Source: a phage
NCBI GenBank assembly: GCA_014913405.1
Contig: GCA_014913405.1_3931.1
Direction: 5' to 3' (one strand)
Length of the DNA: 64,000 nt
Below the pieces are notes generated by a model that saw only the letters and a list, made by a program, of their open reading frames with translations, did no database searches and had not been told where the DNA came from. Numbering within the stretch: the first letter of the stretch is position 1; each line of letters opens with the position of its first letter. Below, in pieces: positions 29,127 through 29,522 of the stretch. The translations under genes and the position numbers were made by a program.

Positions 29127-29522
29127 TTAGTGCTTCACAGCACCTATAATTAATCTAAGAAGGCCGCCTAACCCATTGAAAAATTTAAGGTAAGGCAGCC
29201 TTTTTCATTTTCAATTTGTGCAGGTAGCTGTATAGGTCTGCACAGGTGTCTCAAAAAATCTCATCGCCGGATAGAAAAATCATTTTCAAAACGTGCAGAC
29301 TCCGCTCAGGTCGGGCAAGAAAAATCATTTTAGAATTGTGCAGGTAGGTTTTTATGGGGAGCCAGACCAACCCCTCTCCCCCTATTACTCCCCCTCTCCC
29401 CAAAAGTCAAGAGAAAAATTTGTAGCGGATTGAAAAATAATTCTTGATTTGTGTTCTGTTTTGTGGTAGTCGTGTGCGCACGTTTCATTACAGTTTTTCC
29501 AAAAATATTTTTAAAATTTTTC

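What the first reader, a model, noticed from the sequence alone, without database searches (positions are those of the whole stretch)
29371..29401. Isolated G-quadruplex / i-motif-forming tract
CCCCTCTCCCCCTATTACTCCCCCTCTCCCC has four C-tracts of 4-5 nt (four G-tracts on the - strand) with loops of 3, 7 and 3 nt, which fits the G4/i-motif pattern. It sits in a ~39% GC genome, between the tandem repeats and the array promoter, so it is compositionally out of place and in a regulatory position.
Basis: seen in the sequence. Interest (0 to 1): 0.5.

Follow-up and report, generated by a model that had tools for sequence, protein, structure and literature searches.

The report
Conserved quadruplex-prone tract, Felix O1 phages
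A unique 31-base run of four cytosine blocks, conserved in a non-coding control region of many Felix O1-type phages, could fold into unusual DNA shapes, but whether it does, and what it is for, is untested and about half of its relatives do without it.

Summary
CCCCTCTCCCCCTATTACTCCCCCTCTCCCC lies at 29371-29401. It is the only canonical quadruplex motif in the 64-kb window, and the homologous tract is the only one in the complete Felix O1 genome. It has the most extreme G4Hunter score in both, and no Watson-Crick hairpin competes with it.

The window is a Felix O1-like phage (Felixounavirus). The tract sits in a 490-bp non-coding gap. Upstream are the intrinsic terminator of the preceding operon and 3-5 iterons found nowhere else in the genome. 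Downstream is the sigma-70 promoter of a small-gene array.

- The tract is a perfect G-free polypyrimidine mirror repeat, so it is also a triplex (H-DNA) candidate.
- It is shared by three genera. The two arms changed in mirror-symmetric pairs between genera.
- About 55% of Felixounavirus records carry an unrelated, motif-free block of identical length instead.
- Several public assemblies break inside it.

No function is shown. My best guess (about 0.3) is a read-through insulator: C-rich RNA loads Rho and the G-rich template stalls polymerase. A DNA-structure switch, an origin component and a selectively neutral tract remain open. It is a new instance of a known kind and of moderate interest.

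The parts
29371..29401 (+). C-tract: four C4-5 runs, C4-TCT-C5-TATTACT-C5-TCT-C4. It is a G4 motif on the - strand and an i-motif motif on the + strand. With its flanking AA it forms a perfect mirror repeat at 29369-29403.
   Evidence: unique; G4Hunter -2.32. (quadruplex-aware MFE). (longest perfect mirror repeat in the window: arms 15, spacer 5).
28347..29126 (+). Upstream gene for a macro-domain / 'phosphatase' protein, the last gene of the preceding + strand operon.
   Evidence: ORF. Annotation of the homologues. tblastn.
29160..29205 (+). Intrinsic terminator of the upstream operon: imperfect stem 29162-29173 / 29189-29200, then T5 at 29201-29205.
   Evidence: Read from the sequence. The homologous site in wV8 is annotated as a Rho-independent terminator. 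It is conserved in alignment A1. The simple scan missed it because its loop is 15 nt.
29205..29347 (+). Cluster of three direct repeats (iterons) TCATTTYMR-N4-GTGCAG(GTAG), starting at 29205, 29280 and 29325. A degenerate fourth copy lies at 29432-29453, so the tract is inside the array.
   Evidence: only three matches in 64 kb, all here. (four copies in Felix O1, only at 7989-8164). (3-5 copies in relatives).
29402..29460 (.). Most conserved non-coding segment. It holds an inverted copy of the promoter's 'TTTTTCT-TTGACT' element (29405-29419, - strand) and the inverted repeat AGTCAAGAG (29405-29413) / TTCTTGATT (29441-29449).
   Evidence: Invariant columns. (I3). Consensus fold. Linkage to the block type is lost to its right.
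29471..29482 (.). Small palindrome CGTGTGCGCACG whose stem shows two compensatory pair changes across genera.
   Evidence: pairs at columns 138/145 and 139/144.
29523..29551 (+). Sigma-70-type promoter of the small-gene array: TTGACT-17-TAGTAT, with an A/T-rich upstream element.
   Evidence: Conserved.
29562..29582 (+). Leader hairpin GGGGAGGG...CCTTCCCC ahead of the first array gene.
   Evidence: Sequence. Part of repeat DR_6 in the wV8 annotation.
29615..29998 (+). First gene of the array of small genes, each with a repeated promoter/leader unit. The array runs to 35314.
35393..35623 (+). Second C-rich, G-poor stretch. It includes the longest pyrimidine run of the window (35403-35421) and lies just after the last array gene, where no intrinsic terminator was predicted.

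Best explanation
The tract is a conserved cis-acting non-coding element of Felix O1-like phages, probably older than the split of the three genera that carry it. It is a G-free polypyrimidine mirror repeat on the RNA-like strand of the rightward operons. It lies in the untranslated gap between the intrinsic terminator of the upstream operon and the promoter of the small-gene array. I think it most likely works as a read-through insulator. A transcript that escapes the terminator acquires about 40 nt of unstructured, C-rich, G-free RNA, a near-ideal loading (rut-like) site for host Rho. The template strand carries a very strong quadruplex motif that could stall RNA polymerase. Either route would stop transcription before it runs over the array promoter. 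Shown: the sequence properties, uniqueness, position, conservation and lack of coding. Inferred: transcription through the tract, Rho loading, structure formation and the insulating effect.
For: Position: the tract lies about 170 nt downstream of the terminator T-run and about 120 nt upstream of the promoter's -35 hexamer. Composition: the 78-nt window 29362-29439 has C 35% and G 12%, the third most C-over-G window of 64 kb. The top two lie at 35393-35623, immediately after the last + strand array gene, where no intrinsic terminator is predicted. So the strongest C-rich, G-poor stretches in the + strand-transcribed part of the window both mark ends of + strand transcription units. No conserved ORF crosses the tract on either strand: frames and start codons differ between relatives and the genera differ by a 4-nt indel just upstream of it. 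The tract is unpaired in the consensus fold and single-strand folding is no better than shuffles. The C-over-G excess is kept in Felixounavirus C-type, Suspvirus and Mooglevirus, including HP1, which breaks the G4 motif. None of 21 counted substitutions in the tract is to G. Quadruplex potential of the template strand. The Felix O1 genome paper says that how transcription passes the many terminators is unknown (PMC3185647), so no known mechanism contradicts this.
Against: No transcript data exist for this region; literature searches found none. Type B phages, about 55% of records, have neither the C-over-G excess (C minus G about 0.04) nor a G4 motif at this place and are viable. Known rut sites are usually longer and less repetitive. 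A Rho-loading role does not explain the perfect mirror symmetry or the pairwise co-evolution of the arms. The tract also sits inside an iteron array, which points to a DNA-level role. G4 formation on a template strand in vivo is uncertain.
Confidence: 0.3

Rival explanations
1. DNA-level structural switch. Under negative supercoiling the tract leaves the B-form, as a G4 plus i-motif or as an intramolecular triplex (H-DNA). This changes local superhelicity or factor access for the neighbouring promoter-like elements, like the CT element upstream of c-MYC.
For: The tract is the strongest and only G4 motif in the window and in Felix O1, with a large predicted G4 stabilisation. It is a perfect 12-15-nt mirror repeat, the longest in the window. 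Between Felixounavirus and Mooglevirus, 6 of 7 differences fall in three mirror-symmetric position pairs (exact p = 0.011). The Moogle arms remain 12/12 compatible with purine-motif triads. 19 of 21 C-type variants keep the motif. Several assemblies break inside the tract, as expected of DNA that polymerases copy poorly.
Against: There is no experimental evidence. The co-evolution rests on one inter-genus branch. HP1 lacks the canonical motif and L050 keeps it only with loops up to 12. Type B phages lack the motif entirely. C+ triads and i-motifs need low pH, and proven functional G4s in enterobacteria and their phages are rare (own knowledge).
Confidence: 0.2
2. Selectively neutral or nearly neutral low-complexity spacer. 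It arose by slippage or duplication of a C-rich unit, persists by descent, and only its length (spacing) matters.
For: The type B block is unrelated in sequence (about 37% position identity by hand count) but exactly the same length, 54 nt. VpaE1 differs by a 10-nt deletion. One contig (L048) has an extra 13-nt unit CTCTTACTCCCCC, showing slippage. Phages without the tract are common.
Against: The tract is retained across three genera while the sequence just upstream of it is much more diverged. Changes avoid G (0 of 21) and are mirror-paired. Other lengths are tolerated (44, 48, 50 and 62 nt), so spacing is not strict.
Confidence: 0.2
3. Component of a replication origin or another protein-DNA assembly. 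Iterons bind a phage protein, and the purine/pyrimidine-asymmetric tract next to an A/T-rich segment and promoter-like elements helps form a persistent RNA-DNA hybrid or primer, as G-rich RNA on a C-rich template does at ColE1 or mitochondrial CSBII.
For: The iterons occur only here in the window and in the whole Felix O1 genome and vary in copy number from 3 to 5. The tract lies between iteron copies. A/T-rich segments and divergent 'TTGACT' elements follow it. On the - strand, TTGACT is followed 17 nt later by an invariant TA in all variants, including type B.
Against: There are no DnaA boxes, IHF sites or GATC in the region. The putative leftward -10 in C-type phages (TAAGAG or TAATAG) lacks the conserved final T, and no - strand promoter was scored there. 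GC skew shows no inflection here. No origin has been mapped in this phage group (the term is absent from the genome paper).
Confidence: 0.12
4. Recombination-prone module junction. The tract marks the edge of an exchangeable upstream module and promotes, or merely records, mosaic exchange.
For: Block type (C-type or B) is linked to sequence up to about 1 kb to the left. The same-type minus different-type identity is +28.6, +17.5, +11.8 and +9.9 points in successive 250-nt bins. Linkage vanishes in the first bin to the right of the tract (+2.5). The window's macro-domain gene is itself a rare allele.
Against: The abrupt loss of linkage can be explained by the invariant 60-nt segment at 29402-29460 providing homology for crossovers, with no role for the tract. 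Type B genomes show the same junction without the tract.
Confidence: 0.1
5. Part of a small protein-coding gene, on the + strand (proline-rich peptide) or on the - strand (glycine/arginine-rich ORFs annotated in several records).
For: ORFs cross the tract at 29293-29433 (+), 29251-29403 (-) and 29330-29584 (-). - strand ORFs are annotated in Moogle, Mordin, Sf13 and Pr103Blw.
Against: C-rich DNA is open in all frames by composition. A 2-nt indel (wV8), a 10-nt indel (VpaE1) and a 4-nt inter-genus indel change the frame. Start codons are missing in Sf17, SUSP2 and Si3. The annotated ORFs differ in extent. The iterons fall in different frames in Moogle.
Confidence: 0.03

Closest known systems
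Canonical G-quadruplex / i-motif-forming sequences (G3+N1-7 x4), e.g. the pilE-associated G4 of Neisseria
   Same: Four runs of 4-5 G on one strand with loops of 3, 7 and 3, a very high G4Hunter score, no competing hairpin, and a non-coding location near promoters.
   Different: No experimental evidence of folding or function here. The tract sits in a 39% GC virulent phage where it is the only such motif. About half of its relatives replace it.
c-MYC NHE III1 'CT element' (C-rich polypyrimidine repeats upstream of a promoter that can form G4, i-motif or H-DNA); comparison from my own knowledge
   Same: Repeated CCCCTC-type polypyrimidine units about 120-170 bp upstream of a strong promoter, with all three non-B options open.
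   Different: That is a eukaryotic element with dedicated binding proteins (hnRNP K, CNBP) and no obvious bacterial counterparts. The resemblance is in architecture only and was not tested.
Rho-utilisation (rut) sites of Rho-dependent terminators, e.g. lambda tR1
   Same: C-rich, G-poor, unstructured, untranslated RNA at the end of a transcription unit. A second such stretch follows the last array gene.
   Different: The pure C/U part is only about 40 nt and highly repetitive and symmetric, whereas known rut sites are longer and irregular. No termination data exist. It is absent in type B relatives.
H-DNA-forming homopurine-homopyrimidine mirror repeats
   Same: Perfect mirror symmetry with pyrimidine-only 12-nt arms and a 7-nt spacer. 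Mirror-paired substitutions occur between genera, and the arms stay triad-compatible.
   Different: The arms are short for stable H-DNA, the C-rich arms need protonation, and the spacer contains A. Not probed.
G-rich RNA / C-rich template elements at R-loop origins (ColE1 RNA II, mitochondrial CSBII); comparison from my own knowledge
   Same: Strong purine/pyrimidine strand asymmetry next to A/T-rich DNA, promoter-like elements and iterons.
   Different: No credible promoter that would transcribe the G-rich strand through the whole tract was found. No origin has been mapped.

Membership tests
Putative G-quadruplex sequence (PQS) | Four G-runs of 3 or more separated by loops of 1-7 nt on one strand | tested here: met
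   runs of 4, 5, 5 and 4 with loops 3, 7 and 3, on the - strand.
Putative G-quadruplex sequence (PQS) | High propensity score and no stronger Watson-Crick alternative | tested here: met
   G4Hunter -2.32. G4-aware MFE -28.8 against -5.8 kcal/mol. Hairpin z-scores 0.3-1.4.
Putative G-quadruplex sequence (PQS) | G-runs conserved among homologues | tested here: inconclusive
   19 of 21 C-type variants in three genera keep the motif. HP1 and L050 do not with loops of 7 or less. All 11 type B variants lack it.
Putative G-quadruplex sequence (PQS) | Quadruplex demonstrated in vitro or in vivo (CD, DMS, polymerase stop) | not testable with these tools
   Only an indirect hint: assemblies break at the tract.
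i-motif-forming sequence | Four C-tracts (ideally 4-5 or longer) with short loops on one strand | tested here: met
   That longer tracts fold nearer to neutral pH is from my own knowledge.
H-DNA (intramolecular triplex) motif | Homopurine-homopyrimidine mirror repeat with a short spacer | tested here: met
   mirror repeat 29369-29403. The 12-nt arms are pyrimidine-only, and it is the longest mirror repeat in the window; mirror identity 12/12.
H-DNA (intramolecular triplex) motif | Supercoil-dependent single-strand sensitivity | not testable with these tools
   Needs S1, KMnO4 or chloroacetaldehyde probing.
Rho-dependent terminator (rut site) | About 70-80 nt of C-rich, G-poor RNA | tested here: met
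   C 35% and G 12% in 29362-29439, rank 3 of the window. Kept in all C-type relatives. However, the G-free core is only 39 nt.
Rho-dependent terminator (rut site) | Untranslated and unstructured RNA | tested here: met
   No conserved ORF. Unpaired in the consensus fold. No Rfam family.
Rho-dependent terminator (rut site) | Transcribed on this strand, with Rho-dependent 3' ends downstream | not testable with these tools
   No transcript data found.
Iteron-type replication origin | Cluster of direct repeats unique in the genome | tested here: met
Iteron-type replication origin | Host initiator or architectural sites (DnaA box, IHF site, GATC cluster) | tested here: not met
   none in 29101-29620.
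Sigma-70 promoter reading leftward through the tract | -35 and -10 hexamers with 16-18 nt spacing and a conserved T at the last -10 position | tested here: not met
   TTGACT is present, but the -10 would be TAATAG or TAAGAG. No - strand site was scored here.
Genome terminus / packaging site | Coincides with the physical ends or the terminal repeat | tested here: not met
   The 581-bp terminal repeat of relative Pr103Blw maps to window positions about 35806-36396, 6.4 kb away.

The most novel reading that the evidence does not exclude
The tract, the genome-unique iterons, the invariant inverted 'TTGACT' elements and the A/T-rich segment together form the unmapped replication origin or master control region of Felix O1-like phages. 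In this reading the mirror-symmetric purine/pyrimidine tract adopts a triplex, G4 or R-loop structure that is needed for initiation, and the type B block is an alternative 'allele' of the same switch.
Probability: 0.1. Interest if true: 0.7.

Novelty: new member of a known kind. Interest (0 to 1): 0.4.

Why it matters
Felix O1 is a classic Salmonella typing and biocontrol phage, yet its transcription control and replication origin are unknown. This tract is the only canonical quadruplex or triplex-prone sequence in its genome. It lies in the largest conserved control region outside the terminal repeat, next to genome-unique iterons. It also occurs in nature as a clean presence/absence dimorphism, with a same-length replacement. 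That supplies ready-made isogenic-like comparisons for asking whether a non-B DNA motif or a Rho-loading tract does anything in a virulent enterobacterial phage. Practically, the tract appears to be a weak point for short-read assembly of these phages. If it has no function, the case is still a useful calibrated example of a striking motif kept by descent.

Tried and rejected
- Genome end or packaging site. I suspected this because the Andreotti record and several contigs end at the tract. I rejected it because the terminal repeat of a relative maps 6.4 kb away, and the Andreotti end is a snap-back artefact.
- Coding on either strand. Rejected on inconsistent frames and start codons.
- Known RNA family. 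Rfam gave only a sub-threshold mir-22 hit elsewhere in the region.
- Conserved RNA structure involving the tract. The tract is unpaired in the consensus fold.
- A wider family sharing the core CCCCCTMTTACTCCCC. Scans gave 68 viral and at least 120 bacterial hits, about the number I estimate by chance for a 16-mer. The new viral loci share no gene neighbourhood with the window, and many bacterial hits look like the complement of ribosome-binding sites or local repeats. Two earlier scan attempts failed on pattern length.
- Host factor sites. No DnaA box, IHF site, CRP site or GATC was found.
- Rightward promoter inside the tract or at TTAGAA-17-TATAGA. It is not conserved (TATGGG in the window, absent in type B and SUSP2).
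- Linkage of the block type to a downstream partner gene. None was seen within 5.5 kb to the right.
- Literature on G4s, transcript maps or origins in Felix O1-like phages. Nothing relevant was found.

Full report
**What the window is.** The 521 bases around the finding match 227 phage records, almost all Escherichia or Salmonella Felix O1-like phages (Felixounavirus, Ounavirinae). Annotated relatives place the tract in the non-coding gap between a macro-domain/'phosphatase' gene and the first of a series of small genes. In the window these are ORF 28347-29126 and ORF 29615-29998. The gap between them, 29127-29614, is about 490 bp.

**The observation.** The sequence is at 29371-29401 exactly as reported.
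- It is the only G3+N1-7 x4 motif on either strand of the 64 kb, even with loops up to 12.
- First-order Markov simulations give 0.03 such motifs per 64 kb, and none with four runs of 4 or more in 200 trials.
- G4Hunter gives -2.32, the extreme of the window; the next strongest is 1.6.
- In the complete Felix O1 genome (86,155 bp) the homologous tract is also the single canonical motif and the G4Hunter extreme, at -2.64.

**Structural potential.** ViennaRNA with quadruplex energies predicts a four-layer G4 for the - strand. The minimum free energy falls from -5.8 to -28.8 kcal/mol for 53 nt, and from -7.2 to -24.9 with DNA stacking parameters for 91 nt. Ordinary hairpin folding of either strand is no better than shuffled sequence, with z-scores of 0.3 to 1.4.

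AACCCCTCTCCCCCT-ATTAC-TCCCCCTCTCCCCAA (29369-29403) is the longest mirror repeat in the window, and its 12-nt arms contain only pyrimidines. It is therefore an H-DNA (triplex) candidate as much as a G4/i-motif candidate. None of these structures can be demonstrated with the tools available here.

**Anatomy of the surrounding region**, from left to right:
- The intrinsic terminator of the upstream operon, 29160-29205. It was read from the sequence, is annotated as such in wV8 and is conserved.
- Three direct repeats TCATTTYMR-N4-GTGCAG(GTAG), starting at 29205, 29280 and 29325.
- The tract.
- An invariant segment, 29402-29460. It contains an inverted copy of the promoter's TTTTTCT-TTGACT element, the inverted repeat AGTCAAGAG/TTCTTGATT, and a degenerate fourth repeat copy.
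- A small palindrome, 29471-29482, with two compensatory pair changes between genera.
- An A/T-rich stretch and the promoter TTGACT-17-TAGTAT at 29523-29551.
- A leader hairpin and the first array gene.

The repeat motif occurs nowhere else in the window, nor elsewhere in the whole Felix O1 genome, where its four copies lie at 7989-8164. No DnaA box, IHF site, CRP site or GATC lies in the region. Rfam finds nothing relevant.

**Not the genome end.** One GenBank record (Andreotti) and several contigs end at the tract, which suggested a terminus. However, the Felixounavirus Pr103Blw has 581-bp direct terminal repeats determined with PhageTerm (PMC8303462) and annotated in its record. These map to window positions about 35806-36396, 6.4 kb to the right. 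The Andreotti end is an inverted snap-back artefact.

**Conservation and dimorphism.** I collected homologous regions without selecting on the tract, using the invariant downstream segment as the search pattern, plus annotated records.

A C-rich block of the same design is present in Felix O1 itself, many other Felixounavirus, Suspvirus and Mooglevirus. The design is C-runs, then TCTTACT, then C-runs. Nineteen of 21 distinct variants keep a canonical motif. L050 needs a loop longer than 7, and HP1 has lost one run.

A second class, type B, carries an unrelated sequence of exactly the same length (54 nt between GTGCAGGTAG and AAAAGTCAA). It has no motif. In the phage collection, 112 records cover the C-type query and 140 cover the type B query. 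In the rows shown, type B occurs only in Felixounavirus, so the C-rich block is probably the older state and type B a later replacement. Host genus does not separate the two classes.

**Signs of constraint within the tract.** The Felixounavirus consensus is C4-TCT-C5-TCTTACT-C5-TCT-C4. The Mooglevirus consensus is C3-ACCAT-C4-TCTTACT-C4-TTCCT-C3. They differ at 7 positions, and 6 of these form three mirror-symmetric pairs (exact probability 0.011). The Moogle arms remain 12/12 compatible with purine-motif triads when the right arm is the duplex. This rests on a single inter-genus branch, so it is suggestive only. None of 21 counted substitutions is to G. That fits a G4 (no C in the G-strand), a triplex, and a G-poor RNA equally well.

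**Not coding.** ORFs cross the tract on both strands, and some records annotate - strand ORFs here. Several facts argue against a gene:
- Reading frames change through a 2-nt indel in wV8, a 10-nt indel in VpaE1 and a 4-nt inter-genus indel.
- Start codons are missing in several phages.
- The iterons fall in different frames in Moogle.

**Function: what the evidence favours.** For the rightward operons, the tract is the RNA-like strand.
- The 78-nt window 29362-29439 (C 35%, G 12%) is the third most C-over-G window of the 64 kb.
- The first two lie at 35393-35623, directly after the last + strand array gene (which ends at 35314). No intrinsic terminator is predicted there.
- That stretch also contains the longest pyrimidine run of the window.

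So in the + strand-transcribed part of this genome, strongly C-rich, G-poor sequence appears only at the two places where rightward transcription units should end. An untranslated, unstructured C-rich RNA is what Rho loads on (established knowledge). The excess is kept in all C-type relatives, including HP1 with its broken G4 motif.

I therefore rank a read-through insulator first, at about 0.3. It could work through Rho loading, possibly reinforced by a G4 on the template strand. Against it, type B phages have no such composition. No transcript data exist. Mirror symmetry is not explained.

The rival explanations are:
- A DNA structural switch (about 0.2).
- A neutral spacer (about 0.2).
- An origin or protein-assembly component (about 0.12).
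- A recombination junction (about 0.1).
- A coding sequence (about 0.03).

**Linkage.** Among 15 C-type and 15 type B Felixounavirus loci, block type is linked to the sequence on its left. The same-type minus different-type identity is +28.6, +17.5, +11.8 and +9.9 points in successive 250-nt bins going leftwards. It is not linked to the sequence on its right, where the first bin gives +2.5. The tract therefore belongs to the upstream module (macro-domain gene, terminator, iterons), and a mosaic junction lies in the invariant segment 29402-29460. No partner locus was seen within 5.5 kb to the right.

**Assembly anomalies.**
- Two IMG/VR contigs (L012, L015) begin inside the tract, directly fused to Nextera adapter sequence.
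- A circular contig (L037/L042) is cut inside the tract.
- The Andreotti record stops just before it.
- The VpaE1_ev035 record carries an adapter-end scar (CTGTCTCTAGAGACAG) with a duplicated unit inside it.
- One contig (L048) has an extra 13-nt unit.

A break at a random position would fall within about 60 nt of an 88-kb genome with a probability of roughly 7e-4 per assembly (my estimate). The clustering is therefore unlikely to be chance. It fits poor copying or coverage of this sequence, or population heterogeneity. It does not prove structure.

**Comparison with what is known.** The tract meets the sequence definitions of a PQS, an i-motif sequence and an H-DNA mirror repeat, and the composition criterion of a rut site. 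The experimental criteria for each could not be tested. It fails the tests for a terminus, a leftward sigma-70 promoter, a host-type origin and a coding sequence. I found no paper describing it, and the Felix O1 genome paper states that transcription control is unknown.

It is a new instance of a known kind of sequence. Its interest is raised by its uniqueness in the genome, its deep conservation, the arm co-evolution, the natural same-length replacement and its position among genome-unique iterons. It is lowered by the complete lack of functional evidence and by its dispensability.

Noticed in passing
whole window; also Felix O1 (L240 + L241): GATC is completely absent: 0 observed against about 214 expected in the window, and 0 against about 283 in Felix O1. 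CTGCAG, CAGCTG, GAATTC, ATGCAT and GGTACC are also absent. This is strong restriction-site avoidance.
   Followed up: partly
window 35315-36450: A large non-coding region full of short repeats (CTTGTTAR, CTGTTAAG, CTATAAAG). Positions about 35806-36396 correspond to the 581-bp direct terminal repeat of relative Pr103Blw, so the window runs through a collapsed genome end.
   Followed up: partly
window 35393-35623: The two most C-over-G 78-nt windows of the 64 kb and the longest pyrimidine run (TCCCTTTCCTTTCCTTCCT, 35403-35421) lie just after the last array gene, where no intrinsic terminator was predicted. This may be a Rho-type end of the array transcript.
   Followed up: partly
window 29205-29347 and 29432-29453: Iteron-like direct repeats TCATTTYMR-N4-GTGCAG(GTAG) found only in this gap, both in the window and in the full Felix O1 genome. 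Copy number is 3-5 among relatives. Function and binding protein are unknown.
   Followed up: partly
window 29402-29482: About 60 nt that are invariant across three genera, with an inverted copy of the promoter's -35/upstream element and a 9-bp inverted repeat. It is followed by a 12-nt palindrome whose stem shows compensatory changes (CGTG/CACG versus CGCA/TGCG).
   Followed up: partly
L012, L015, L037/L042, L003 (MN850610 Andreotti), L002 (LR699048 VpaE1_ev035), L048: Public assemblies break, carry Nextera adapter remnants, or vary in unit copy number exactly at the C-tract. The Andreotti record also ends in inverted snap-back artefacts.
   Followed up: partly
window 28347-29126: The macro-domain protein is only about 41% identical to that of most Felixounavirus and over 90% identical in just 13 records, so it is a rare mosaic allele. 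Block type at the tract is linked to this left-hand module but not to the right-hand side.
   Followed up: partly
window 29985-35314: An array of small genes, each preceded by a near-identical unit: a promoter-like TTTACA-N17-TAAAGT overlapping a GGGGCTTA...TAAGCCCC hairpin, then a shared leader and ribosome-binding site. One unit gave a sub-threshold, surely spurious mir-22 Rfam hit.
   Followed up: no
window 46624-51835: A cluster of 26 tRNA genes on the + strand.
   Followed up: no
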